This document shows positions 1,777-64,000 of a DNA stretch of 64,000 nt, in pieces (the stretch's first letter is position 1; each line of letters opens with the position of its first letter). A program made the translations under genes and the position numbers. This DNA is from Candidatus Iainarchaeum sp. Lineage in GTDB: Archaea > Iainarchaeota > Iainarchaeia > Iainarchaeales > JAZDFD01. The notes beneath the pieces were generated by a model that saw nothing but the letters and a program-made list of their open reading frames with translations, was not told the origin of the DNA and ran no database searches. The DNA lies in contig JAZDFD010000016.1 of assembly GCA_043808155.1 (NCBI GenBank), forward strand, positions 7,604 to 71,603, written 5' to 3'.

Positions 1777-2820
1777 ATGGCTGGTATTGTTGGTTATGGT
1801 GCGTATATTCCGATTTTGAGAATTAAAGTTGAAGATATTGCAAACGTCTGGGGCAAAGACGGAAAGAAAATTGCTGAAGGCCTCGGAGTTAAGGAAAAAG
1901 CAGTTGCTTCAATGGATGAAGATGCCTGTACAATTTCAGTTGAAGCTGCGAGAAAGGCACTGGAAGTTTCAGGAATTGATGCACAGAGTATAGGTGCAAT
2001 TTACGTTGGTTCAGAATCACACCCCTATGCAGTAAAACCTACTGCTTCAATAGTTGCAGATTCAATTAATGCAGGTCCGGATTTAACTGCTGCAGATTTG
2101 GAATTTGCATGCAAAGCAGGAACTGCAGGAATTCAAATGTGCATGGGTCTTGTTGATTCAGGAATGATTGATTATGGTTTGGCAATTGGTTCAGACACTG
2201 CTCAGGGAAGACCAGGTGATGCATTAGAATACACTGCAGGTTCTGGCGGAGCTGCTTTCATCATCGGAAATAAAAAAGAAGAAGTAATTGCAGAAATTGA
2301 TTTAACTTACTCATTTACAACTGACACTCCTGATTTTTGGAGAAGACAACATGCGGAATTTCCAAGACATGCCGGAAGATTCACTGGAAAACCTGCTTAC
2401 TTCAAACATGTTTCAAGTGCTGCAAAAAAGTTAATGGAAAAAGCAGGAACAACACCTGATGATTACAAATATGCGGTTTTCCATCAGCCAAATGCAAAGT
2501 TCCCGCAGACAGTTGCGAAAATGCTTGGTTTTAAAGAAGAAAAAATCAAACAGGGTTTATTAGTGCCCTTTATTGGAAACACATATTCAGGTGCTGCAAT
2601 GATTGGTTTAGCATCAGTTCTTGATGTTGCAAAACCAAATGATAAAATCTTAGTTGTGAGTTATGGCAGCGGTGCAGGAAGTGACGCATTCAGTTTAACA
2701 GTAACTAAAAATATTGAAAATAAACGAGCAGAAGTTCCTTTGTTTGAAATGATTAAAGAAAAGAAATATCTGGATTATGCAAACTATGCAAAACATAGGG
2801 GAAAATTAAAATCTTTGTAG
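1777..2820 (+). CDS. HMG-CoA synthase (archaeal type)
   Basis: The N-terminus [22 protein letters not shown] and the thiolase-fold Cys region [11 protein letters not shown] fit this family. It starts 4 nt after the HMGR stop. Confidence 0.9.
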
Positions 2821-2828
2821 GTGTTGTG

Positions 2829-3914
2829 ATGAGAAGTGTATCGATAATTGGTGTTGGATTCGATAATTGTTTCACACCAAAAAGTTCATCGGAAATTAGG
2901 TCACCAACTCATTTATATGCTGAAAATTATTCAAATTATAATATGCAAATTTCTAAATTTCGTTTGATTAGAGCTACGCAGAAATTGCCAAACGATGCAT
3001 CTTCTAGAGAAATTGCAACAGCAGCAGGATATAAATCACACAAAATAATTAATATTTATTTTGAATCTTTAGAGCAACTCAAGACACAAGCTGGAACTCT
3101 GGAATCAAATAAAGATGAAGTTAATCAAGTTTTTCCACAAATTGAATTTAGTTTGCAGGACATTTCGAGAGGAATTCAAATTCCTCTTGATATAACACCA
3201 CTTTTAGCAGAGGAAATTGGATGGCATATAGGTGATGGTTGTATTCCAAATAACAAAAATGGGAATGCAATATACCAACTTGGTGGAGATCCAAATGAAG
3301 AAAGAGAATTCTACGAAAATTATATCAAAAAGACTTTCAAAGCATTATACAACTATAATGCGAAACCTAACTTTTTGGCAAAGGGTAATCTATTTGGGAT
3401 AACTTTTGCATCAAAAGCAATTTTTGATTTCAAAACAAAAATTTTAGGATTCCCAATCGGTAAAAAATCTCATATTATAAGGATTCCTGACGCAATAATG
3501 TTTGGTGATGATGAAAACAAAAAAGCAGTTATTCGCGGAATTGCAGACACTGACTTTTCAGTCACATTTCAAAAAAAACATAAAAATTTCCATTATTATC
3601 CTGCAATTATAGGCAGCACCGTCTCTAAGACATTAGCCACTCAATTAAAGTCACTTTTAATTCAATTAGGTTTTAAACCAAAAGTACAAGTCTATTTTAG
3701 AAAAAGAACACAACATAACGAATATTTGATTAGACTAATGGGTAAAAATCAATTAGAAAAATGGTTTGATATTATTGGTAGTAATAATCCAAAACACATA
3801 ACAAAATACAATGTATGGGCAAAAGTCGGATTTTGTCCTCCTTATACGAAAATTGTTCAAAGACAGAAGATTATAGAAGGGCATCTAAATCCGAAAAAAT
3901 TTTATGGTGGTTAA
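2829..3914 (+). CDS. Free-standing double-motif LAGLIDADG homing endonuclease with a thiolase-derived 10-residue leader
   Basis: Two LAGLIDADG-type motifs (LAEEIGWHIGDGCI, AVIRGIADTDFSV) and an HTH-like segment SSREIATAAGYKSHKIINIYF. The N-terminus MRSVSIIGVG copies the thiolase start. It ends with TAA inside the thiolase start region. Confidence 0.75.
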   Translation: MRSVSIIGVGFDNCFTPKSSSEIRSPTHLYAENYSNYNMQISKFRLIRATQKLPNDASSREIATAAGYKSHKIINIYFESLEQLKTQAGTLESNKDEVNQVFPQIEFSLQDISRGIQIPLDITPLLAEEIGWHIGDGCIPNNKNGNAIYQLGGDPNEEREFYENYIKKTFKALYNYNAKPNFLAKGNLFGITFASKAIFDFKTKILGFPIGKKSHIIRIPDAIMFGDDENKKAVIRGIADTDFSVTFQKKHKNFHYYPAIIGSTVSKTLATQLKSLLIQLGFKPKVQVYFRKRTQHNEYLIRLMGKNQLEKWFDIIGSNNPKHITKYNVWAKVGFCPPYTKIVQRQKIIEGHLNPKKFYGG

Positions 3915-3915
3915 T
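2829..3915 (+). mobile_element. Homing-endonuclease cassette inserted at the 5' end of the thiolase gene
   Basis: A 1.09-kb insert sits in an otherwise tightly packed operon. It is bounded by two diverged copies of the first 10 thiolase codons (2829-2858 and 3916-3945). Confidence 0.65.
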
Positions 3916-5076
3916 ATGCGTAGTGTATCTGTAATAGGGGCAGCTGTAACAAAATTTGGCGAACACTGGGACAAAAGTTTCCGTGAGTTAATTGCAGAAG
4001 CAGGAATTAAAGCAGTTGCAGATTCCGGTGTTGAAGGAAATAAAATTGAAGCAATTTATGGCGGGTGTATGGCATCTGGAAGATTCATTGGTCAGGAACA
4101 CATAGGTGCACTAATTGCAGACCAGCTTGGTTTGAATCCAATCCCCTCTACAAGATTAGAAGCGGCATGTGCGTCTGGTGGTGTAGCACTAAGAACTGCA
4201 TATCTGTCAATTGCAGCTGGCGTTTATGATATTGTTGCAGTTGGCGGAATTGAAAAAATGACTGAAGTAAGTACGGAAGAAGCAAGTTTTGCATTAGGCG
4301 GTGCAGGTGATGAAGAAACAGAATTGTTTCATGGTGCAACATTTCCTTCGTTGTATGCACTTCTTGCACGTTCACACATGAAAAAATTCGGAACAACTGA
4401 AGAACAAATGGCAATGTGTGCAGTTAAGAATCATAAAAATGCAACAAAGAATCCTTATGCACAATTTCAAAGAGAAATTACTGTTGATGATGTAATGAAT
4501 TCAGGTTATGTTTCCACACCACTTAAACTTCTGGACTGCTCACCAATAACTGATGGTGCTGCTGCATTAATTTTGTGTGAAACAGAAAAAGCAAAACAGA
4601 TTACTCATAAAGCAGTTGAACTTGTTGGTTCAGGACAAGCGTCGGATTCACTTGCACTTGCCGGCAGAAAAAGTTTGACAGAATTAAGCGCAACAAAAAT
4701 TGCTGCTGAGCAGGCATATAAACAATCTGGTTTGAATGTAAAAGATATTGATTTTGCAGAAGTACATGATTGTTTTACAATTGCAGAAATTCTTGCAATT
4801 GAAGATCTTGGATTTTTCAAAAAAGGAGAAGGCGGAAAAGCAACTGAAAAAGGTAAAACTCAGCTGGATGGTGAAATACCAATCAACACTTCTGGTGGAT
4901 TGAAAGGTAAAGGCCACCCTGTTGGTGCAACTGGTGTTGCACAGGCAGTTGAGGTTTTTTGGCAATTAAATAATGAAGCGAATCAAAGACAAATTAAAGA
5001 TGCAAAAGTTGGTTTAACACACAATGTTGGTGGTTCAGGAGCAACAGCTGTTGTTCATATATTTAAAAAAGCATAA
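3916..5076 (+). CDS. Acetyl-CoA acetyltransferase (archaeal thiolase)
   Basis: MRSVSVIGAAVTKFGE start, active-site region RLEAACASGG, and C-terminal GHPVGATG and NVGGSGA motifs. The track ORF starts 12 nt earlier at 3904. Confidence 0.9.
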   Translation: MRSVSVIGAAVTKFGEHWDKSFRELIAEAGIKAVADSGVEGNKIEAIYGGCMASGRFIGQEHIGALIADQLGLNPIPSTRLEAACASGGVALRTAYLSIAAGVYDIVAVGGIEKMTEVSTEEASFALGGAGDEETELFHGATFPSLYALLARSHMKKFGTTEEQMAMCAVKNHKNATKNPYAQFQREITVDDVMNSGYVSTPLKLLDCSPITDGAAALILCETEKAKQITHKAVELVGSGQASDSLALAGRKSLTELSATKIAAEQAYKQSGLNVKDIDFAEVHDCFTIAEILAIEDLGFFKKGEGGKATEKGKTQLDGEIPINTSGGLKGKGHPVGATGVAQAVEVFWQLNNEANQRQIKDAKVGLTHNVGGSGATAVVHIFKKA

Positions 5077-5084
5077 GTGATTTT

Positions 5085-6263
5085 ATGAACTACGAAGAAG
5101 AATCTCTGAAGATTCATGAACAAGATAAAGGAAAAATGGAATTAGTTCCCAAAAGAAGAATTACAAATATTGATGAACTTTCAGTTTTGTACACTCCGGG
5201 AGTTGCAGAACCTTCACGTAAAATTGCAGAAAACAAAGAAGATGTTTACAAATATACAATGAAAGGAAATGCAATTGCAATAGTAACAGATGGTTCAGCT
5301 GTTTTGGGTTTGGGAAACATAGGTCCTGAAGCAGCGCTTCCTGTAATGGAAGGGAAATCATTACTGTTCAAACAGTTTGCAAATATAGATGCATTTCCAA
5401 TTTGTGTAAAAACACAGGATGCAGATGAGATTGCAATGATTGTGAGAAATATTTCACCTGCATTTGGTGCAATCAATCTGGAAGACATTTCTGCACCGCG
5501 TTGTTTTGAAGTAGAAGAAAAACTTGCAGATTTGGGAATACCTGTTTTTCATGATGATCAACATGGAACTGCAATCATAACACTTGCAGCACTTATCAAT
5601 GCTGCAAAACTTTCAGACAGAAAGTTAGGTGAATTAGAAATTGCAATTAATGGTGCAGGTGCTGCCGGGACTGCAATTACAAAACTTCTGAAGAATGAAA
5701 AACTGCGTGAATTTGGTCTGGAACCGGTAAAAGAAATCATACTTTGTGATTCAAAAGGAATTATCTATTCAGGGAGAGAGGGGCTGAATAAGTACAAACA
5801 GGAAATTGCGGAATTCACAAACACAAAAAATTTACAGAGCACGTTAGCAGATGCAATGCTGAACAAAGATGTTTTTATTGGGGTTTCAAAAGCAAATCTT
5901 GTGGATGAAGAAATGATTAAATCAATGAATGAAAATCCCATTGTTTTTGCAATGGCAAATCCAATACCTGAAATCATGCCTGAAAAAGCAAGACATGCAG
6001 GTGCGAAAATAATTGCAACAGGGCGAAGTGATTATGCAAATCAGGCAAATAATGTTCTTGCTTTCCCTGGTGTGTTAAGAGGTGCATTAGATGCGCGTGC
6101 TACTAAAATTACTGAGGAAATGAAAATCGCTGCTGCAATCGCATTAGCAGATTACGTAGAAAATCCGAGTGTTGAAATGTTTATTCCAAATCCATTGGAT
6201 GAGAAAGTTGCTTACTTAGTTGCTGAACGCGTAGCAGAAACCTGGAGGAGATTCAATGAGTGA
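5085..6263 (+). CDS. NAD(P)-dependent malic enzyme (short prokaryotic form)
   Basis: Motifs YTPGVAEPSRKI, DGSAVLGLGNIGPEAALPVMEGKSLLFK and the Rossmann motif NGAGAAGTA. Confidence 0.9.
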   Translation: MNYEEESLKIHEQDKGKMELVPKRRITNIDELSVLYTPGVAEPSRKIAENKEDVYKYTMKGNAIAIVTDGSAVLGLGNIGPEAALPVMEGKSLLFKQFANIDAFPICVKTQDADEIAMIVRNISPAFGAINLEDISAPRCFEVEEKLADLGIPVFHDDQHGTAIITLAALINAAKLSDRKLGELEIAINGAGAAGTAITKLLKNEKLREFGLEPVKEIILCDSKGIIYSGREGLNKYKQEIAEFTNTKNLQSTLADAMLNKDVFIGVSKANLVDEEMIKSMNENPIVFAMANPIPEIMPEKARHAGAKIIATGRSDYANQANNVLAFPGVLRGALDARATKITEEMKIAAAIALADYVENPSVEMFIPNPLDEKVAYLVAERVAETWRRFNE

Positions 6264-6657
6264 TAATTTACCCCTGCATTGGAGACGATATCCTGAAAGA
6301 TATTATCTGAAAGGAACATTGTGTGAAATATGTAATACTGCATATTTTCCGCCAAGACAAGTGTGTCCAAAATGCAGACGAAAAGGAAAAATAAGAGATG
6401 AAATAATGCCAAAAACTGGAAAAATAATTACTTATACTGAGTTAAGCGTAGGGCCAATGGGATTTGAGCATGAAACACCTTACTTCTTGGCATTGATTGA
6501 ACTGGATAATGGTGCAAAACTTCTAAGTCAGGTTGTAGATTCAAAAAAAGAAAAAATAAAAGAAGATGCAAGAGTAAAAAAAGTCTTCAGAAAAATCGCA
6601 GACAACGATGCAGAAGGTGCAATCTCATATGGTTTTAAGTTTAAAGTTGTTGAATAA
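6256..6657 (+). CDS. DUF35-type Zn-ribbon/OB-fold protein (scaffold of the archaeal thiolase/HMG-CoA synthase complex)
   Basis: Zn ribbon CEICNTAYFPPRQVCPKCRRKG followed by an OB-fold-like C-terminal half. It overlaps the malic enzyme stop by 8 nt. Confidence 0.85.
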   Translation: MSDNLPLHWRRYPERYYLKGTLCEICNTAYFPPRQVCPKCRRKGKIRDEIMPKTGKIITYTELSVGPMGFEHETPYFLALIELDNGAKLLSQVVDSKKEKIKEDARVKKVFRKIADNDAEGAISYGFKFKVVE

Positions 6658-42786: not shown

Positions 42787-45654
42787 GTGGTGTTGATGAA
42801 AAAGGTATTGTTAGCCGTATTTGTACTGTTTTTACTTATTGCATTCACTTCATCCGCATTCGCAATCCAGCAGTTAATGGCACTTCACGGACAGGTTACT
42901 GATACTGGAAACCCAATAGTGAGCGGAAATTTAAGAGTTTACATTTATGATGATCCCACTGCAGGAAACCTAATTTATGATTCAGCTTCAGATTATGATG
43001 GGTCAATTGTAAATGGAATTTTTGATGTAATGCTTGGAGATAATACAACACTTGACCTTAACTACGGAACTCATTACTACATGGATTTAGCTGTTGATGG
43101 AACTGATTTAGATTTTGGTGCAAATGAAAGACAAAGATTTGAATCATCACACGGACTAGTACGAACAAATTCAATTATGGATGGTACAATTGCAAATGCA
43201 GACATTGCATCAGATGCTGCAATTGCCTGGTCAAAAGTTTCAAAAACTGGTTCAAATCTTTCTGACATTGGCTGGGATTCTGATTTTAATACTGCATTTG
43301 TTACAGAAGCAGATGGAAATAATTTATATGTTCTTCAAACAGATGGAAACACTTGGTATTACAATAGAACAGATGTGAATTCACTTTTTGTTAAACAAGC
43401 AGATGGAAATGTATGGTATCCGCGCTTAACAGAAAGTGAAACAATAACTGGAACTTGGGACTTTACAAACTCAACAACTTTTTCAGGTGGCTTTGGAAGT
43501 AATGGTGCAACAATCCAAGATGGAATTCTTTACGTACAATCAATTGTAATTGTAAATGATTTCAATGCTGCAACTGTTCAGGGAATTGACATTAACGGAC
43601 ATCACACTCCTTCAATTGACAACACATGGGATTTAGGTTCTGATACAAAAACTTGGAGAACAATTTACGGAACAGATGCAAACTTCACAACAATTTCAGT
43701 TCCTGCAGATGCAATCACTTGGACATTTGTAAATAAATCAGGGAGTAACTTAACTGACATCGAAACCCGAAACCATAATGATTTGCAGAGCATGGATGGC
43801 GGAACAACTGCAGAATATTATCACTTAACAAACACGCAACACTCTAACTTAACTGCATTAAATGGTGTATGGGTTACAATAAATTCCAATTCAGGGTCAA
43901 CTTCTGCAAACGCATTCCCTGACACATTAAACATTTATGGTTCTGACGACATTAATGTTTCAATTTCAGGAGACACAGTCACAATTGATTACAATGGTTC
44001 TGTTGCTGGTTCAATAACTGACACAAATTGGTCAACCTCATGGTCAGTATTTGATACAAATTTAAGTAATTATTACTGGAAACAATCTGATTTGAATGCA
44101 TATCTCCCACTAACTTATTACACTCAAACAGATGCAAACAATGTATTTGTAAAGATTTCAGATACTAACAACACAGGCAGATTAACCTACACAGTAATCG
44201 CAGACGCACCATGGACTACATCTGACACAACAGGAATCCTGTGGGCAGAACTGGATGCACTGACACCATGGGCAGATGGAAACGTAGCAGATGACATTAC
44301 ATTAACAAATCTGACACAAATAACAACAAGAGCATACAGCGATTTACAAGGAACGCCATACATTCCAACAGAAGCAGCAATAGATGCAAACGCACAAGCA
44401 CTAATTAACGCATCTGACACAAACGCAGCAACAGCATGTGATAATCAGGAAGTACTCCTAGGTGACGGAACATGCCTGAGCAGATTCACATTAGACACAA
44501 ACATCGCTGCAGGCGCAACAGGAATCCTGTGGGCAGAACTGGATGCACTGACACCATGGGCAGATGGAAACGTAGCAGATGACATTACATTAACAAACAT
44601 TTCACAAATCACAACAAAACCAATCTGGTCATTAGGCAATGTAGCAGATCTAAACCTCGTATTTGTAAAACAAAGTGATGGAAATACATGGTACATAAAA
44701 ACCGCAGACGCAAACACAGCAGGAAGATTAACATACACAGTAATCGCAGACGCACCATGGACTACATCTGACACAACAGGAATCCTGTGGGCAGAACTGG
44801 ATGCACTGACACCATGGGCAGATGGAAACGTAGCAGATGACATTACATTAACAAACGTAACCCAAATAACAAACAGAAACATATGGGACATGACAAATGT
44901 CAGCGATTTAGCAATTGACACAAACGCAGCAACAGCATGTGATAATCAGGAAGTATTGCTGGGTGACGGAACATGCCTGAGCAGATTTGTACTGGACACT
45001 AATATAGCGGGGGGTAGCTCAACCGATAGTAATGTTTGGACAGATAAATTCTTAGATGATACAAATAAATTAGTTGCAGATTGGAATGCAGGAAATGTGG
45101 AACTTGAGGTTAGAGATATAAGTGTAGGAACTAATATAACTGTAAGAGGAAACATTAGTGCAGTTGGAGATCTAGATGTTATAGGAGATGCAAATATTGG
45201 AACTTACTCTGCACCAAACCAACCAATGTTTAGAGCGTTTATGACTTCTGCAATGTCGGATCTAACTAATAATGTATGGACCGAAGTGAATATTGATGAT
45301 GACAGTGGTACTGTTGGATTTGACCCCAAAAATAAGTTTAACACTACAACTCATGCTTATACTCCTGTAGAAGAGGGATATTATTTAGTTTATGGTCAGG
45401 CTTATTGGAGCACTAATATTACAACTAACAAAAGATACAATTGTTCCATCTATAAAAATGGTGCATCTGTATCATTGGATAGTGTACATTCAAGTGATGC
45501 TGCTGCTTATCTTATGTGCAGAGTTACAGATTTAATTTATTTAGATAGTAACGATTACATTGAATTCTATGTTAGATCATTATCTGGAGACAATACTGCG
45601 GATATTGCAGGCGGAACAACAGCAACATATTTCTTTGCCCACAAGATTTCATAA
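42787..45654 (+). CDS. Fibre-like surface protein (955 aa) with C-terminal C1q/TNF-like head domain
   Basis: Signal peptide. A fibre-type N-terminal module follows (LHGQVTDTGNPIVSGNLRVYIYDDPTAGNLIYD...NGIFDVMLG...YYMDLAV), then internal repeats. The C-terminus FRAF...GYYLVYGQAYW...SIYKNG...DYIEFYV...TYFFAHKIS follows the C1q jelly-roll pattern. Confidence 0.7.
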   Translation: MVLMKKVLLAVFVLFLLIAFTSSAFAIQQLMALHGQVTDTGNPIVSGNLRVYIYDDPTAGNLIYDSASDYDGSIVNGIFDVMLGDNTTLDLNYGTHYYMDLAVDGTDLDFGANERQRFESSHGLVRTNSIMDGTIANADIASDAAIAWSKVSKTGSNLSDIGWDSDFNTAFVTEADGNNLYVLQTDGNTWYYNRTDVNSLFVKQADGNVWYPRLTESETITGTWDFTNSTTFSGGFGSNGATIQDGILYVQSIVIVNDFNAATVQGIDINGHHTPSIDNTWDLGSDTKTWRTIYGTDANFTTISVPADAITWTFVNKSGSNLTDIETRNHNDLQSMDGGTTAEYYHLTNTQHSNLTALNGVWVTINSNSGSTSANAFPDTLNIYGSDDINVSISGDTVTIDYNGSVAGSITDTNWSTSWSVFDTNLSNYYWKQSDLNAYLPLTYYTQTDANNVFVKISDTNNTGRLTYTVIADAPWTTSDTTGILWAELDALTPWADGNVADDITLTNLTQITTRAYSDLQGTPYIPTEAAIDANAQALINASDTNAATACDNQEVLLGDGTCLSRFTLDTNIAAGATGILWAELDALTPWADGNVADDITLTNISQITTKPIWSLGNVADLNLVFVKQSDGNTWYIKTADANTAGRLTYTVIADAPWTTSDTTGILWAELDALTPWADGNVADDITLTNVTQITNRNIWDMTNVSDLAIDTNAATACDNQEVLLGDGTCLSRFVLDTNIAGGSSTDSNVWTDKFLDDTNKLVADWNAGNVELEVRDISVGTNITVRGNISAVGDLDVIGDANIGTYSAPNQPMFRAFMTSAMSDLTNNVWTEVNIDDDSGTVGFDPKNKFNTTTHAYTPVEEGYYLVYGQAYWSTNITTNKRYNCSIYKNGASVSLDSVHSSDAAAYLMCRVTDLIYLDSNDYIEFYVRSLSGDNTADIAGGTTATYFFAHKIS
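44176..44855 (+). repeat. Near-identical intragenic repeat family A (three copies)
   Basis: Copies at 44176-44309 and 44722-44855 (134 bp, 2 mismatches at the 5' end) and a partial copy at 44518-44597 (80 bp). They encode (GRLTYTVIADAPWTTSDT)TGILWAELDALTPWADGNVADDITLTN. Confidence 0.9.
44415..44988 (+). repeat. Intragenic repeat family B (two copies, period 502 bp)
   Basis: gacacaaacgcagcaacagcatgtgataatcaggaagta...ggtgacggaacatgcctgagcagatt at 44415-44486 and 44917-44988. They encode DTNAATACDNQEVLLGDGTCLSRF. Confidence 0.9.
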
Positions 45655-60938: not shown

Positions 60939-60983
60939 GCTCATTTTTCTCTCTTTTTAATATTTCCATTCGGGTAATTTCAT

Positions 60984-63900
60984 ATGGTAAAAAACTTCTC
61001 ACAAATCCCTGAAAAGGAATTGCTGGAAAAAATTCTAAAATTAAATGAAATTGATAGTTTCAACCCAATGCAGGAAAAAGTGCTCTCCCAAAATCTCTTC
61101 AATTCAAATATTGTGGTTTCAGCACCCACTGCTTCAGGAAAAACATTAGTTTCGGAAATTGCAGCTCTAAATTCAATAATAAATAACAGAAAAAAAGTTG
61201 TTTACACCTGCCCTTTGCGTGCATTAGCAAATGAGCATTATACTGAATTCAAAAGAAAATATTCTGATTCCCTGAATATCAAAGCAACGATAAGCACAGG
61301 GGACTTTGATTCAAGTTCAAAACACCTGCAAAATTACGACATTATTTTCACTACGCATGAAAAATGTTTACCTTTTGATGAATACATCGTATGCAAGGAT
61401 GATAACAATTTGAGAATAGTTAAGATTGGTGAGTTTTTTGAGGAAATTTATCATAATGCAAAAATTATTAAAATGAAAAATAAAATTACCCTCATCCCAA
61501 AAAAGAAATATTTTTCTGTTTCCTTTGATTTTAATAAAAAGGAACCTGTTTTTTCTGAAATAGAAGCAGTAACTAAAAGCGCTAACAAAGATAAATTACT
61601 AGAACTTAAGCTTCAGTCTGGCAGAATGCTGACAACTACTTCTGACCATACACTCTTTCGTCTTCAAAATGCTGAGCTGGAAAAAGTGTCTGCAGAAGAT
61701 TCTTTGGGCTCTTATTTAACTGCTCTATCAGATTCGTCTATTTTACTAAAATCAAAAATTAATCATTTTAATGTTTTTGAACAGTTCGTTGAAAATAATC
61801 TTGATAATTTATTTTATGTAACTTTTTCCTCTGTTAATTTCGAAGAACTGACAAATGTAATGGTCACTAAAAACAGAACCAAAAGAAAGGCAAAAGAGCT
61901 GGCAAAGCGTTACCTGAAAAATAAGCGTATGCCCGCTAGCATAGCAAAAAAACTTAAAAATATTAAAATTCATAAAATTACACTGCAAAGAAGTGATTCT
62001 TACCACCAACTAAATTCTAAAATCAAGTTGTCCAAATCTTTTGGAAAGATTTTAGGTTATTTTATTTCCGAGGGTTCTTATTCTACTGTCTCAAAAACTC
62101 ACGGCTACTATGTGCTGAGATACCCTGTAATAAACAAATGGATTAAAGATGATTTGATTAAATCCTTAGAAAAAGAAAAAATCCCTTTTAAGTTACATGA
62201 AAAAAATAATGAATTAGCTGTTAAAAGCAAAATTTTATATCACCTATTCAAAAGTTTTGGCATTGGAAAAGCTGCAAATAAAAAATTACCTGATTTTGTG
62301 TTTTTTGCCCCTAAACCATTTTTGATTGGTTTATTACAAGGCCTATTTAATGGTGATGGCGGCGTAAATCCAAGCTCAATTGATTATTCTACTAAAAACA
62401 AAGAATTAGCATATCAAATATCTTTACTTTTAACTCGTTTTAGAGTGCAGACCTATATTTACCCACAAAAAGTTAAGGGCTATAAAGATACTTATTGGCG
62501 GCTTAATATGTATGGTGGAAAAAATATTGAAAGATTTTTATATCTTGTGCAAGAATTGAGACCAAATTTAATGAAAAAGGCAATTGAGCTTGCCAGTTCT
62601 AAAGAAAAAAGAGATAGTATGTTCAATAATCTGCCTGCCAGACCACTTTTCAAAAAGAACCAATTGCACAGCATGAAAAAGCTAGATAGGGCTGTTTATT
62701 CTGGATGGTATTCTAATAATAGGGTTTCAAAAACTTTGGCAAAGAGTTTTTCGTTAAAATATAATCTCAAAGAGGCTTTAGCTATATGCAATTACCCTCT
62801 TGGTTTTTTAAAAGTCAAAACCACGACAACAGCAAAATCCAAAAAATTTGTTTACAATATTAAAACAAAGGCTGGAAATTATTTTACTGGAAATGGAATT
62901 CTAATTAAAAATTGCGATTCTCTGCAAAGACACAATGCAGAATGGCTTCAGGATGTGGGACTCCTAATCCTTGACGAAATCCATGATTTGGATTCCGGAA
63001 GAGGACCAACACTTGAAATAGTAACAACGAAATTCCTCTTCATAAACCCAAAAATCCAGATTCTCGCATTAAGTGCAACAATTCCCAATTGTAAAGATAT
63101 TGCAGACTGGCTCAATGCAGAACTCATAGAATCTGATTACCGCCCAATGAAACTAAAAGAAGGAGTCTTTTTTCAGAATGAAATCACTTACAATACTAAT
63201 TCTGAAGAACTCCTCTCACATGATGATTCACTTTCATCAATAATAACTGATACTTTAGAAAACAAAAAAAAGCAGGCCCTAGTTTTTGCAAACACAAGGA
63301 GAAATGCAGAAGCTTCAGCAAGAAAACTTTCTGAAATAACATATTCACTTCTCACAGAAAAAGAAAAAGCAGAATTAGAAAAAGCCTCGAAAAAAATCCT
63401 TGATGTTCTGGAAGCTCCGACTGAACAATGCAAAAAAATTGCAGAACTCCTGAAAAAAGGTTCATGTTTCCATCATGCAGGTTTAATGCAAAAACAAAGA
63501 ACAGTTATTGAAGATGAATTCAAAAAAAATAATTTAAAAGTAATTTCCGCCACGCCGACTTTGGCTGCGGGAATTAATTTGCCCGCGCACACAGTAGTAA
63601 TAAGTTCAGTTTACAGATACGCAGATTCCGGAATGGAAAAAATCCCAGTAAGAGATTATAAGCAAATGGCGGGTAGAAGTGGAAGACCAAAATACGACAC
63701 AGAGGGGCGTGCAATAATGATTGCAAAAAATGCACTGGAAGCAGAAGATTTATTTGAGAGATACGTGAATGGACGTGTTGAAGAAGTTTCCTCTCACTTA
63801 GGCATTGAATCTGTTTTAAGAATGCACCTGCTTTCTTTAATTGCAAACAATTTCGTTTTTGATTTGGATAGCATGGAAAAATTCTTTTCAAAAACATTTT

Positions 63901-64000
63901 ATGCAAACCAATTTGGGAACTTAAATGAAATTTACAGCAAACTCCAGTCACTGCTTCTTGAACTGCAGGAAATGGAATTTGTAACTGCAGATGAAAAATA
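60984..64000 (+). CDS. hel308: Hel308/Ski2-type superfamily-2 DNA helicase, interrupted by an intein; 3' end outside window
   Basis: The frame is open from the ATG at 60984 to the window end, so it is absent from the track. Motifs: I SAPTASGKT, Ib TTHEK/CDSLQRH, II LDEIH, III SAT, V TPTLAAGINLPA, VI QMAGRSGRP. Confidence 0.9.
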   Translation, partial: MVKNFSQIPEKELLEKILKLNEIDSFNPMQEKVLSQNLFNSNIVVSAPTASGKTLVSEIAALNSIINNRKKVVYTCPLRALANEHYTEFKRKYSDSLNIKATISTGDFDSSSKHLQNYDIIFTTHEKCLPFDEYIVCKDDNNLRIVKIGEFFEEIYHNAKIIKMKNKITLIPKKKYFSVSFDFNKKEPVFSEIEAVTKSANKDKLLELKLQSGRMLTTTSDHTLFRLQNAELEKVSAEDSLGSYLTALSDSSILLKSKINHFNVFEQFVENNLDNLFYVTFSSVNFEELTNVMVTKNRTKRKAKELAKRYLKNKRMPASIAKKLKNIKIHKITLQRSDSYHQLNSKIKLSKSFGKILGYFISEGSYSTVSKTHGYYVLRYPVINKWIKDDLIKSLEKEKIPFKLHEKNNELAVKSKILYHLFKSFGIGKAANKKLPDFVFFAPKPFLIGLLQGLFNGDGGVNPSSIDYSTKNKELAYQISLLLTRFRVQTYIYPQKVKGYKDTYWRLNMYGGKNIERFLYLVQELRPNLMKKAIELASSKEKRDSMFNNLPARPLFKKNQLHSMKKLDRAVYSGWYSNNRVSKTLAKSFSLKYNLKEALAICNYPLGFLKVKTTTTAKSKKFVYNIKTKAGNYFTGNGILIKNCDSLQRHNAEWLQDVGLLILDEIHDLDSGRGPTLEIVTTKFLFINPKIQILALSATIPNCKDIADWLNAELIESDYRPMKLKEGVFFQNEITYNTNSEELLSHDDSLSSIITDTLENKKKQALVFANTRRNAEASARKLSEITYSLLTEKEKAELEKASKKILDVLEAPTEQCKKIAELLKKGSCFHHAGLMQKQRTVIEDEFKKNNLKVISATPTLAAGINLPAHTVVISSVYRYADSGMEKIPVRDYKQMAGRSGRPKYDTEGRAIMIAKNALEAEDLFERYVNGRVEEVSSHLGIESVLRMHLLSLIANNFVFDLDSMEKFFSKTFYANQFGNLNEIYSKLQSLLLELQEMEFVTADEK
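61365..62912 (+). mobile_element. 516-codon intein with LAGLIDADG homing-endonuclease domain inside helicase motif Ib
   Basis: It starts CLPFDE after ...IFTTHEK. Block B is TTTSDHTLF. LAGLIDADG motifs are ILGYFISEGSY and LIGLLQGLFNGDGG. It ends FVYNIKTKAGNYFTGNGILIKN, followed by extein CDSLQRH. Confidence 0.85.

What the first reader, a model, noticed from the sequence alone, without database searches (positions are those of the whole stretch)
2826..3945. Free-standing LAGLIDADG homing-endonuclease gene inserted at the very 5' end of the thiolase gene, with the thiolase start duplicated and recoded
Between HMG-CoA synthase (stop at 2820) and the thiolase sits a 361-codon ORF. Its first residues, (M)MRSVSIIGVG, repeat the thiolase N-terminus MRSVSVIGAA, which reappears 1.09 kb downstream at 3916. 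The two 30-nt copies (atgagaagtgtatcgataattggtgttgga versus atgcgtagtgtatctgtaataggggcagct) differ mostly at synonymous or conservative positions, so the copy in front of the functional thiolase looks recoded. The body of the ORF has an HTH-like segment and two LAGLIDADG-type motifs (LAEEIGWHIGDGCI, AVIRGIADTDFSV). The ORF ends with TAA inside tatggtggttaatATG, so it is not an intein. My interpretation is a homing-endonuclease cassette that uses the host gene's ribosome-binding site, start codon and first ~10 codons. At its 3' end it restores an intact, probably cleavage-resistant thiolase start. Archaeal LAGLIDADG enzymes are classically found in inteins and rRNA/tRNA introns. An in-operon copy fused to a host-gene leader inside a core lipid-biosynthesis operon is unusual. 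The window also holds a second LAGLIDADG element, the helicase intein.
Basis: partly seen in the sequence, partly recalled or inferred. Interest (0 to 1): 0.78.

Follow-up and report, generated by a model that had tools for sequence, protein, structure and literature searches.

The report
Homing endonuclease hijacking thiolase gene start
A selfish DNA-cutting-enzyme gene sits inside the first codons of an essential lipid-pathway gene of a tiny archaeon; it appears to borrow that gene's start signal and supplies a replacement start, so the host gene still works without any intron or intein.

Summary
ORF 2829-3914 is a two-domain LAGLIDADG endonuclease: Pfam hit above threshold, AF2 pLDDT 90.8, Foldseek matches to I-DmoI, I-Tsp061I and intein endonuclease domains, both catalytic Asp conserved.

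Its first 10 codons (MRSVSIIGVG) are the normal thiolase N-terminus. A complete thiolase restarts at 3916.

This is not a one-off. I found 12 distinct loci from Iainarchaeia (Diapherotrites) and one other DPANN lineage with a homologous gene at the same place. Eleven preserve the upstream junction, and all eleven start with a thiolase-type leader. About 75 related loci have HMGS abutting thiolase with no insert.

- In nine loci with an intact fusion the leader stays in frame with the endonuclease. It has a Shine-Dalgarno-like motif in most of them.
- The endonuclease's last codons carry the thiolase's ribosome-binding site.
- "Recoding" is only partly supported. It is confined to Arg2 (AGA to CGT, which creates the endonuclease's overlapping TAG stop) and codon 10 at the junction. 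Codons 5-11 overall are no more diverged than among insert-free alleles.
- Two copies are decaying. Endonuclease and host divergences do not track each other, which fits a mobile element.

Nuclease activity, the target site and translation from the leader are inferred. The closest precedents are fungal-mitochondrial elements. I rate it a new variant of a known kind.

The parts
1777..2820 (+). HMG-CoA synthase gene, the upstream operon neighbour (stop TAG 2818-2820)
   Evidence: Pfam HMG_CoA_synt_N/C and ACP_syn_III_C. In about 75 related loci this gene is followed directly by thiolase.
2819..2823 (+). Shine-Dalgarno-like AGGTG, 5 nt before ATG 2829. It is the thiolase's original ribosome-binding site and now precedes the endonuclease ORF.
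   Evidence: Sequence. Most homologous loci have a GGAGG/GGTG-like motif before the leader ATG and none before the conserved internal Met.
2829..2860 (+). Captured thiolase leader: ATG plus codons 2-10 (MRSVSIIGVG) plus 2 nt of codon 11, fused in frame to the endonuclease
   Evidence: 10/10 aa identical to the L012 thiolase N-terminus. The DNA matches the insert-free L005/L010 starts through ..GGATT and is then unrelated. AF2 predicts residues 1-21 as disordered.
2829..3914 (+). Free-standing LAGLIDADG homing-endonuclease ORF (361 aa, stop TAA 3912-3914)
   Evidence: Pfam LAGLIDADG_3 27.1 bits, above the 22.5 cutoff. AF2 pLDDT 90.8. Foldseek hits to 7qsu, 2dch, PI-SceI and I-DmoI. 100% identical to an NCBI Diapherotrites MAG protein.
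2961..3098 (+). Helical, HTH-like N-terminal module (residues ~45-90). Homologues carry two copies of this repeat; the window copy has lost the first.
   Evidence: Alignment A1. AF2 helices 59-65, 73-77 and 81-88. Only a sub-threshold TetR_N hit on a homologue (E 0.002).
3204..3242 (+). LAGLIDADG motif 1, LAEEIGWHIGDGC, with catalytic Asp136 (3234-3236)
   Evidence: G135-D136-G137 are invariant in 32 sequences.
3525..3563 (+). LAGLIDADG motif 2, AVIRGIADTDFSV, with catalytic Asp242 (3552-3554). It has Phe where the usual Gly follows.
   Evidence: D242 is conserved in >=90% of sequences. F243 is invariant in the thiolase clade, whereas tRNA-adjacent relatives have DTDG.
3789..3911 (+). Conserved C-terminal tail (..NPKHITKYNVWAKVGFCPPYTKIVQRQKIIEGHLNPKKFYGG) shared with tRNA-adjacent relatives
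   Evidence: Alignment A1. The pattern GFCP[PA][KYH]T retrieved 80 related loci.
3906..3910 (+). GGTGG Shine-Dalgarno for the thiolase, encoded by the endonuclease's last two Gly codons
   Evidence: Sequence. Equivalent purine-rich motifs lie in the endonuclease 3' ends of the homologous loci shown.
3912..3923 (+). Endonuclease stop region: TAA (3912-3914) followed two codons later, in frame, by TAG (3921-3923) inside thiolase codons 2-3 (ATGCGTAGT)
   Evidence: In L001, L003, L165, L166, L167 and L170 the endonuclease ends at this TAG, giving an 8-nt stop/start overlap.
3916..3948 (+). Replacement thiolase 5' end (codons 1-11, MRSVSVIGAAV), inferred to be carried by the element. It has Arg2 = CGT and codon 10 = GCT.
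   Evidence: CGN at Arg2 in 9/10 endonuclease-bearing vs 0/7 insert-free alleles. Codon 10 is GGT/GCN in 9/11 vs 1/9. From 3949 on (acaaaatttggcgaaca) the sequence is identical to insert-free L005.
3916..5076 (+). Intact acetoacetyl-CoA thiolase gene (386 aa)
   Evidence: Pfam Thiolase_N and Thiolase_C_1. NCBIfam PRK06064 at 572 bits and archaeal AcCoTHIOL at 566 bits.

Best explanation
A free-standing, two-motif LAGLIDADG homing-endonuclease gene is inserted inside the 5' end of the archaeal mevalonate-pathway thiolase gene, after codon 10 (GxG|LTKFGEHW).

The mobile unit is inferred to be the endonuclease body, followed by an SD in its last codons, followed by a new ATG and thiolase codons 1-10.

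After insertion:
- The host's original SD, ATG and first ~10 codons become an in-frame leader that initiates translation of the endonuclease.
- The element-borne start rejoins the host gene at codon 11. An intact thiolase is therefore still made in the HMGR-HMGS-(endonuclease)-thiolase operon, probably by translational coupling. Ancestrally there was an 8-nt ATGCGTAG stop/start overlap; in the window there is a 1-nt gap.

Inferred: the enzyme cuts insert-free thiolase alleles around codons 7-15, and double-strand-break repair copies the cassette in.

The occupied allele escapes cutting for two reasons. The upstream copy is interrupted at the junction, and the downstream copy differs at the junction codon (GGA/G/C to GGT/GCN).

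Shown: fold, catalytic residues, position, leader homology, open frame, presence/absence polymorphism, decay states.

Inferred: nuclease activity, target site, translation from the leader, and which repeat copy is element-borne.
For: **It is a LAGLIDADG enzyme**
- Pfam LAGLIDADG_3 scores above its gathering threshold.
- The AF2 model has pLDDT 90.8 and pTM 0.85.
- Foldseek matches monomeric LAGLIDADG enzymes: 7qsu at 1e-10, I-Tsp061I at 1e-7, and I-DmoI with target-normalised TM about 0.7.
- D136 is invariant and D242 is conserved in at least 90% of 32 homologues.

**Same site in many genomes**
- Twelve distinct loci carry a homologue directly 5' of thiolase: the window, L001, L003, L004, L086, L160, L165-L170.
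- In about 75 other archaeal and bacterial loci HMGS abuts thiolase with a 5-30 nt gap.

**Leader**
- All eleven loci whose upstream junction is preserved begin with a thiolase-type leader (L165 is cut by its contig end). Examples are MRSVSI.. in Iainarchaeia and MKKVAIIGV in the different host lineage of L169.
- In the window, L167 and L169 the leader sits in the native position right after the HMGS stop.
- Leader codons use AGR for Arg2, as insert-free alleles do.

**Translation signals**
- SD-like motifs precede the leader ATG in most loci, and none precedes the conserved internal Met.
- There are no stops in frame 0 between the leader and the internal Met in 9/9 loci, against 0-8 in each other frame (one frame in L168 has none).

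**Junction signatures**
- Arg2 is CGN in 9/10 endonuclease-bearing alleles against 0/7 insert-free alleles (p=4e-4).
- Codon 10 is GGT/GCN in 9/11 against 1/9 (p=0.005).
- The endonuclease's TAG stop lies inside ATGCGTAGT in six loci.

**Selfish-element life cycle**
- L167 is frameshifted. L169 has an in-frame stop and a closed leader. The window copy lacks the first HTH repeat.
- Endonuclease and thiolase divergence are uncorrelated (r=0.06).
- The L169 endonuclease is 40-45% identical to the others although its thiolase is only 48-55% identical.

**Not an intron**
- No RNA family or intron model matches.
Against: - No biochemical or expression data exist, so activity, the target and the initiation site are inferences.
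- Motif 2 has Phe instead of the near-universal Gly after the catalytic Asp, invariant in this clade. This could impair or alter cleavage.
- A conserved internal Met 17-33 codons into the ORF could be the real start; P0006 was annotated from it.
- The thiolase tree is too poorly resolved (internal bootstraps below 55%) to exclude one ancient insertion followed by vertical descent and many losses.
- The Fisher tests ignore phylogenetic non-independence.
- The downstream thiolase copy still encodes an intact codon 7-15 region. Immunity therefore rests on a few substitutions that I could not test. One endonuclease-bearing allele (L165) has the insert-free-type GGA TTG.
- No closely related (>95% identity) pair with and without the insert was found.
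Confidence: 0.7

Rival explanations
1. Domesticated LAGLIDADG/HTH DNA-binding protein (WhiA-like), co-opted as a regulator or operon component of the mevalonate genes. It would be inherited vertically and no longer act as a mobile nuclease.
For: - Fixed position in an essential operon across hosts whose thiolases are only 65-83% identical.
- Extra N-terminal HTH-like repeats.
- Motif-2 Gly to Phe is invariant in the clade.
- WhiA appears among the Foldseek hits (8dy9_I, 1.3e-5).
- The thiolase tree cannot exclude monophyly of the endonuclease-bearing hosts.
Against: - Both catalytic Asp residues are conserved, unlike WhiA as I recall it.
- Most Iainarchaeia and all other lineages sampled lack the gene.
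- Two copies are pseudogenised and one is N-terminally deleted.
- Endonuclease and host divergence are uncorrelated, and one copy is in a distant DPANN lineage.
- The nearest relatives are typical selfish genes next to tRNA genes.
Confidence: 0.12
2. The leader is only a scar. The endonuclease initiates at its own internal start (the conserved Met about 17-33 codons in; possibly Met39 in the window), and the duplicated thiolase codons are a by-product of the insertion with no role in expression.
For: - A conserved Met precedes the first HTH repeat in the full-length homologues with two HTH repeats (about 390-420 aa), and P0006 was annotated from it.
- AF2 predicts residues 1-21 as disordered.
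- Leader residues beyond codon 5-8 drift freely between loci.
- In L169 the leader is closed by a stop, yet an endonuclease ORF with its own ATG remains.
Against: - There is no SD-like motif before the internal Met in any locus, whereas most leader ATGs have one.
- The frame is open from the leader ATG in 9/9 intact loci, while the other frames carry 0-8 stops each over the same stretch, with only one frame in one locus free of them.
- The L169 copy, whose leader is disconnected, is also the one with an in-frame stop, i.e. it is decaying.
Confidence: 0.2
3. The cassette was inserted in the HMGS-thiolase spacer, upstream of the native start, and brought or duplicated a thiolase-like leader. On this view the downstream start is the native one and the upstream copy is element-borne, and the enzyme targets the intergenic/start region.
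For: - The two readings are topologically equivalent: a short tandem duplication with the endonuclease in between.
- tRNA-adjacent relatives abut the 5' ends of their neighbour genes without inserting into them and without duplications.
- The CGT signature could have evolved after insertion simply to terminate the endonuclease.
Against: - In the window, L167 and L169 the leader copy keeps the native spacing to the HMGS stop, and its SD and codon usage (AGR) match insert-free alleles.
- No remnant of an HMGS stop or spacer lies between the endonuclease and the thiolase. Instead there is an endonuclease-encoded SD and a stop/start overlap.
- The leader follows the local host type in L169 (MKKVAIIGV).
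- The region from the HMGS end to codon 10 is intact in the window, so a target lying wholly there would still be cleavable.
Confidence: 0.12
4. Degenerate intein or intron-encoded endonuclease remnant within the thiolase gene.
For: - NCBIfam's weak hits are to intein-bearing proteins, through their endonuclease domains.
- The best structural match is an intein endonuclease domain.
Against: - No Hint/Intein_splicing domain is found; the helicase intein in the same window is detected readily.
- The ORF ends with a stop, and the thiolase restarts at codon 1 rather than continuing at codon 11.
- No Rfam intron model matches.
- Eleven homologues show the same architecture without splicing motifs.
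Confidence: 0.01

Closest known systems
[quoted passage not shown]
   Same: - A LAGLIDADG endonuclease-bearing insertion inside or at the end of a protein-coding gene is compensated by a duplicated, diverged copy of the interrupted gene segment.
- Some endonuclease ORFs are fused in frame to host coding sequence.
- Gain and loss of the element can swap part of the host gene.
   Different: - Those are organellar and mostly associated with group I introns or with 3'-end/exon duplications.
- Here the host is a cellular archaeal chromosome and no intron RNA is detectable.
- The duplicated piece is just the translation-initiation region (SD, ATG and ~10 codons).
- The host start is re-used to translate the endonuclease, and a stop/start overlap couples the thiolase.
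Free-standing homing endonucleases of T4-like phages (seg/mob genes; 'intronless homing') (PMC2988022, PMC2790892)
   Same: The endonuclease has no intron or intein. It lies between or next to conserved genes, cuts the endonuclease-less allele nearby, and spreads by co-conversion of flanking DNA.
   Different: - The phage genes belong to the GIY-YIG or HNH families and are intergenic with their own expression signals.
- From memory, they do not capture the neighbour's start codon or carry a replacement gene end.
- Here the family is LAGLIDADG and the insertion is inside the coding sequence.
Archaeal intron- and intein-encoded monomeric LAGLIDADG enzymes (I-DmoI, I-Tsp061I, PI-SceI and TliVMA endonuclease domains)
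   Same: Same two-domain fold, and paired LAGLIDADG helices each with an acidic residue.
   Different: - Sequence identity is only 13-22%.
- This gene is free-standing.
- It has extra N-terminal HTH-like repeats and a conserved C-terminal 'FGFCPPxT' tail.
- Motif 2 has Phe in place of Gly.
tRNA-adjacent free-standing LAGLIDADG genes of DPANN and other uncultured archaea
   Same: - They are the nearest sequence relatives (30-42% identity) and share the C-terminal tail.
- The endonuclease 3' end abuts or overlaps the start of the neighbouring gene.
   Different: - The neighbour is a tRNA gene.
- No duplicated piece of the neighbour lies upstream and there is no captured leader.

Membership tests
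LAGLIDADG homing endonuclease (monomeric, double-motif) | Significant match to a LAGLIDADG profile | tested here: met
   Pfam PF14528 LAGLIDADG_3, E 4.9e-6, 27.1 bits against a 22.5 cutoff, residues 231-317.
LAGLIDADG homing endonuclease (monomeric, double-motif) | Two alpha-beta-beta-alpha-beta-beta-alpha domains related by pseudo-symmetry | tested here: met
   AF2 pLDDT 90.8; the secondary structure shows two alpha/beta repeats. Foldseek to I-DmoI, I-Tsp061I and PI-SceI: probability 1.00, target-normalised TM 0.65-0.75.
LAGLIDADG homing endonuclease (monomeric, double-motif) | An acidic catalytic residue at the end of each LAGLIDADG helix | tested here: met
   D136 (IGDG) is invariant and D242 (DTDF) is conserved in >=90% of 32 sequences. 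Caveat: the Gly after D242 is replaced by Phe.
LAGLIDADG homing endonuclease (monomeric, double-motif) | Site-specific double-strand cleavage of the insert-free allele | not testable with these tools
   Needs an enzyme assay.
LAGLIDADG homing endonuclease (monomeric, double-motif) | Presence/absence polymorphism at one conserved genomic site, with signs of mobility and decay | tested here: met
   12 occupied loci against about 75 empty ones at the same junction. Two copies are decayed. Endonuclease and host distances are uncorrelated. A recent homing event was not shown.
Intein | Hint splicing domain, continuous reading frame with the host protein, and a nucleophile at the +1 extein position | tested here: not met
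   No Intein_splicing/Hint hit. A TAA stop at 3912 is followed by a fresh thiolase ATG.
Intron-encoded endonuclease (group I/II or archaeal bulge-helix-bulge intron) | Intron RNA structure, with the downstream exon continuing the interrupted codon series | tested here: not met
   No Rfam match in 2500-4300 at E<=1. The downstream gene restarts at codon 1 with its own SD. A bulge-helix-bulge motif was not searched for specifically.
Endonuclease element with compensating host-gene-end duplication (fungal-mitochondrial type) | A duplicated, diverged copy of the interrupted host-gene segment flanks the endonuclease gene | tested here: met
   Leader 2829-2860 against thiolase 3916-3948. The same is seen in all eleven homologous loci that preserve the upstream junction.
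Endonuclease element with compensating host-gene-end duplication (fungal-mitochondrial type) | Organellar genome or group I intron context | tested here: not met
   The contig is an archaeal chromosome fragment from a Diapherotrites MAG. No intron model matches.
WhiA-like domesticated LAGLIDADG regulator | Loss of catalytic acidic residues and universal vertical conservation in the lineage (features of WhiA recalled from memory) | tested here: not met
   The catalytic Asp residues are retained. The gene is absent from most related genomes and pseudogenised in two.

The most novel reading that the evidence does not exclude
This clade may represent a general way for a homing endonuclease to colonise an essential protein-coding gene in a cellular chromosome without an intron or intein.

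The element inserts about 10 codons into the gene. It takes over the host's ribosome-binding site and start codon for its own translation. It carries a replacement SD, ATG and first codons that are translationally coupled to its own stop (ATGCGTAG).

On this reading it arose from tRNA-flanking endonuclease genes and has moved horizontally between DPANN lineages.
Probability: 0.5. Interest if true: 0.65.

Novelty: new variant of a known kind. Interest (0 to 1): 0.55.

Why it matters
Homing endonucleases are thought to survive inside essential genes only when hidden in self-splicing introns or inteins. Otherwise they stay intergenic.

Here a LAGLIDADG gene appears to live inside the coding region of an essential archaeal lipid-pathway gene. 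It does so by swapping the gene's start: the host's initiation signals serve the parasite, and the parasite supplies new ones for the host.

If the enzyme is active, three things follow.
- There is a third, splicing-free solution to the problem of inserting into essential genes.
- There is evidence for DNA exchange and homing among DPANN archaea, whose gene flow is poorly understood.
- It would be a new meganuclease scaffold with extra HTH modules and an inferable ~20-bp natural target.

It also shows that short N-terminal "duplications" next to annotated hypothetical genes can mark mobile elements.

Tried and rejected
- **PDB sequence search.** phmmer of the ORF gave only chance hits. Structure prediction was needed.
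- Both were redone with A2 and A3.
- **Same trick in the tRNA-adjacent relatives.** I looked for a duplicated piece of the neighbouring tRNA upstream of the endonuclease. Nothing exceeded generic tRNA-tRNA similarity, so this was rejected.
- **Other captured leaders.** Among all fetched endonuclease loci, only the thiolase clade shows one.
- **General recoding of the resident start.** Rejected. Only codons 1-4 (Arg2) and codon 10 differ systematically.
- **Thiolase NJ tree.** Meant to separate homing from vertical descent, but internal support is too low, so it is inconclusive.
- **Exact-protein look-ups.** I used the window's thiolase and HMGS to find near-identical insert-free strains. Neither is on record.
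- **Larger HMGS-thiolase gaps.** In L009-L011, L041, L069, L078 and in several endonuclease-bearing loci the gaps hold small membrane or basic ORFs, not endonuclease remnants. They are host variation and not part of the element.
- **Rfam scan for intron RNAs.** Negative.
- **Taxonomy look-up of the L079 host name.** It failed.
- **Literature searches for an archaeal thiolase or DPANN case.** Nothing found.


Full report
**1. What is in the window**

The plus strand carries, in order:
- HMG-CoA reductase (486-1772)
- HMG-CoA synthase (1777-2820)
- a 361-codon ORF (ATG 2829 to TAA 3912-3914)
- thiolase (3916-5076)
- a malic enzyme (5085-6263)
- the DUF35/ChsH2 OB-fold protein (6256-6657)
- mevalonate kinase and a flavoprotein

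The ORF starts MRSVSIIGVG and the thiolase starts MRSVSVIGAA 1087 nt downstream. The two 30-mers are 20/30 identical. The ORF stop lies in tatggtggtTAAtATG. The ORF is 100% identical to a protein that NCBI names 'LAGLIDADG family homing endonuclease' from a Candidatus Diapherotrites (Iainarchaeia, DPANN) MAG.

**2. Is it a LAGLIDADG enzyme? Yes**

- Pfam LAGLIDADG_3 passes its gathering score (27.1 against 22.5 bits).
- NCBIfam matches only the endonuclease domains of intein-bearing proteins.
- An AlphaFold2 model built on a 32-sequence alignment is confident (pLDDT 90.8, pTM 0.85). The exception is residues 1-21, the leader.
- Foldseek against the PDB returns monomeric LAGLIDADG enzymes: the TliVMA intein endonuclease domain (1e-10), I-Tsp061I (1e-7), PI-SceI, and I-DmoI with target-normalised TM about 0.7. 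WhiA also appears.
- Both helix-end acidic residues are conserved: D136 is invariant and D242 is in at least 90% of sequences.
- One oddity: in this clade the Gly that normally follows the second catalytic residue is an invariant Phe (DTDFS).
- N-terminal to the core lies a helical HTH-like module. Homologues carry it twice. Only a sub-threshold TetR_N hit supports the HTH label.
- There is no Hint domain and no Rfam intron model.
- By contrast, the window's DEAD-box helicase intein (60978 to the window end) is detected readily. It is unrelated to this gene.

**3. The leader is real and recurrent**

The closest homologues (40-71% identity among themselves, 42-52% to the window ORF) were traced to their contigs.

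- Twelve distinct loci (the window, L001, L003, L004, L086, L160, L165-L170) all have the gene directly 5' of a thiolase gene, on the same strand.
- Eleven of them preserve the upstream junction (L165 is cut by its contig end). In all eleven the ORF or its upstream remnant begins with a thiolase-type N-terminus. Examples are MRSVSIIG.., MRSISIIG.., MRGVSV.. and MRSVQ... In L169, which comes from a different host lineage, it is MKKVAIIGV.
- A scan of GTDB species representatives with the thiolase returned 80 loci. In nearly all that retain upstream sequence, HMGS is followed by thiolase after 5-30 nt. These are the insert-free alleles.
- Their N-termini read MRSVSIIG(x)GLTKFGEHW. L012 matches the window leader 10/10.
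- At DNA level the window leader follows the insert-free L005 and L010 starts through ..GTTGGATT and then becomes unrelated. The junction therefore lies after codon 10 plus 2 nt, between GxG and LTKFGEHW.
- From codon 12 on, the window's functional thiolase (acaaaatttggcgaaca) is identical to L005.

**4. Expression logic (inferred from sequence)**

- In the window, L167 and L169 the leader occupies the native position right after the HMGS stop.
- Most leader ATGs are preceded by GGTG- or GGAGG-like motifs.
- The conserved internal Met 17-33 codons downstream has no such motif.
- Frame 0 has no stop between the leader and that Met in 9/9 loci, while each of the other two frames has 0-8 (only one frame in L168 is also free). 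This favours translation of the endonuclease from the former thiolase start.
- At the 3' end, the last endonuclease codons (..Y-G-G / ..G-E-K-N-A) encode the thiolase's SD.
- In six loci the endonuclease ends at a TAG embedded in ATG-CGT-AGT, an 8-nt stop/start overlap typical of translational coupling.
- The window keeps this TAG in frame (3921-3923) but has gained a TAA two codons earlier.

**5. 'Recoding'**

I compared thiolase starts from endonuclease-bearing loci with insert-free alleles.

- Only codons 1-4 are more different than insert-free alleles are from each other (0.69 against 0.82 identity). Codons 5-11 are not (0.58 in both comparisons).
- Arg2 is CGT or CGA in 9/10 endonuclease-bearing loci and AGA or AGG in 7/7 related insert-free alleles and in every leader (Fisher p=4e-4).
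- Codon 10, at the junction, is GGT or GCN in 9/11 against 1/9 (p=0.005).
- The Arg2 change is explained by the overlapping TAG stop.
- The codon-10 change is a candidate immunity substitution at the presumed cleavage centre.
- These tests ignore shared ancestry, so they are suggestive only.

**6. Which copy is native?**

The leader has native spacing to HMGS and native codon usage, and in L169 it follows the local host type. The endonuclease-thiolase junction contains no trace of an HMGS stop or spacer.

I therefore favour insertion after codon 10, with the element carrying the new SD, ATG and codons 1-10. The mirror-image reading is kept as a rival.

**7. Selfish or domesticated?**

Evidence for a selfish element:
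- The distribution is patchy.
- L167 is frameshifted. L169 has an in-frame stop and a closed leader. The window copy lacks the first HTH repeat.
- Endonuclease and thiolase pairwise identities are uncorrelated (r=0.06). L001 and L168 have thiolases 83% identical but endonucleases 52% identical. L003 and L165 show the reverse, 68% against 63%.
- The L169 endonuclease is 40-45% identical to the rest. Its thiolase is only 48-55% identical to theirs, and its nearest thiolase relatives (L078, L079) are insert-free.

Caveats:
- An NJ thiolase tree places endonuclease-bearing and insert-free alleles interspersed inside one clade with 100% support, but its internal nodes are weak. A single old insertion with many losses is not excluded.
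- No near-identical insert-free strain was found.

**8. Family context**

A metagenome scan with the clade alignment gave 80 loci. The 30-42% identical relatives share the C-terminal W-K-FGFCPP-T tail. In more than 60 of 78 loci they lie within 0-30 nt of, or overlap, a tRNA gene. They have no duplicated tRNA fragment and no captured leader. The thiolase clade thus looks like an offshoot of tRNA-flanking endonuclease genes that acquired a new target and the start-swap architecture.

**9. Comparison with known systems**

- Free-standing phage endonucleases (PMC2988022, PMC2790892) share intronless homing, but they are intergenic and belong to other families.
- The nearest precedents are fungal-mitochondrial elements with duplicated host-gene ends and in-frame endonuclease fusions (PMC7315562, PMC7902536).
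- Three literature searches found no archaeal or DPANN description.

**10. Verdict**

This is a real, well-supported feature and a new variant of a known kind. It is of moderate to good interest. The biochemistry and the initiation site remain to be shown.

Noticed in passing
Loci L087-L164 (e.g. L088 3782-3882, L092 2965-3082, L138 3734-3817, L146 3766-3842): The wider endonuclease family (30-42% identity, same C-terminal FGFCPPxT tail) almost always lies directly next to a tRNA gene. Often the ORF's 3' end overlaps the tRNA 5' end by 10-70 nt, or it abuts a reverse-strand tRNA 3' end. Many of these tRNAs carry predicted introns or odd anticodon calls. No duplicated tRNA piece was found upstream of the endonuclease.
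   Followed up: partly
window 60978-63998 (+, runs off the window end): A DEAD-box/Helicase_C protein is interrupted by an intein (Intein_splicing plus LAGLIDADG_3, E 2e-16). Its endonuclease is unrelated to the thiolase-associated one (24% identity, E 0.09).
   Followed up: yes
window 5085-6263 (+): A malic-enzyme gene (Malic_M and malic domains) sits between thiolase and the DUF35/ChsH2 OB-fold gene. In L003, L004, L165 and L167 thiolase is followed directly, or after a <100-aa ORF, by DUF35. The window's operon therefore has a second, different insertion.
   Followed up: partly
L001 3648-4037, L003 3309-3914, L004 3577-4001, L166 1977-2501; insert-free L009, L010, L011, L041: Variable small ORFs, either hydrophobic/membrane-like or very basic, occupy the HMGS-thiolase spacer in some lineages whether or not the endonuclease is present. 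They have no Pfam assignment and their function is unknown.
   Followed up: partly
L169 1922-1969 and 3160-3250; L167 2501-3722: These are decay states of the element. In L169 the captured leader is a 15-codon mini-ORF (MKKVAIIGVVEAKVI*) and the endonuclease has an in-frame TAG before its C-terminal tail. In L167 the endonuclease is split by a frameshift into 281-aa and 127-aa ORFs.
   Followed up: yes
window 3552-3557 (D242-F243): In LAGLIDADG motif 2, Phe replaces the near-universal Gly after the catalytic Asp (DTDF against DTDG). It is invariant in the thiolase clade only. This might alter second-strand cleavage.
   Followed up: no
window 38450-42655 and 42787-45654 (+): Two very large ORFs (1401 and 955 aa) have no Pfam match at E<=0.001.
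   Followed up: no
window 1-64000: ARAGORN finds no tRNA gene in the whole 64-kb window (GC 34.7%).
   Followed up: no
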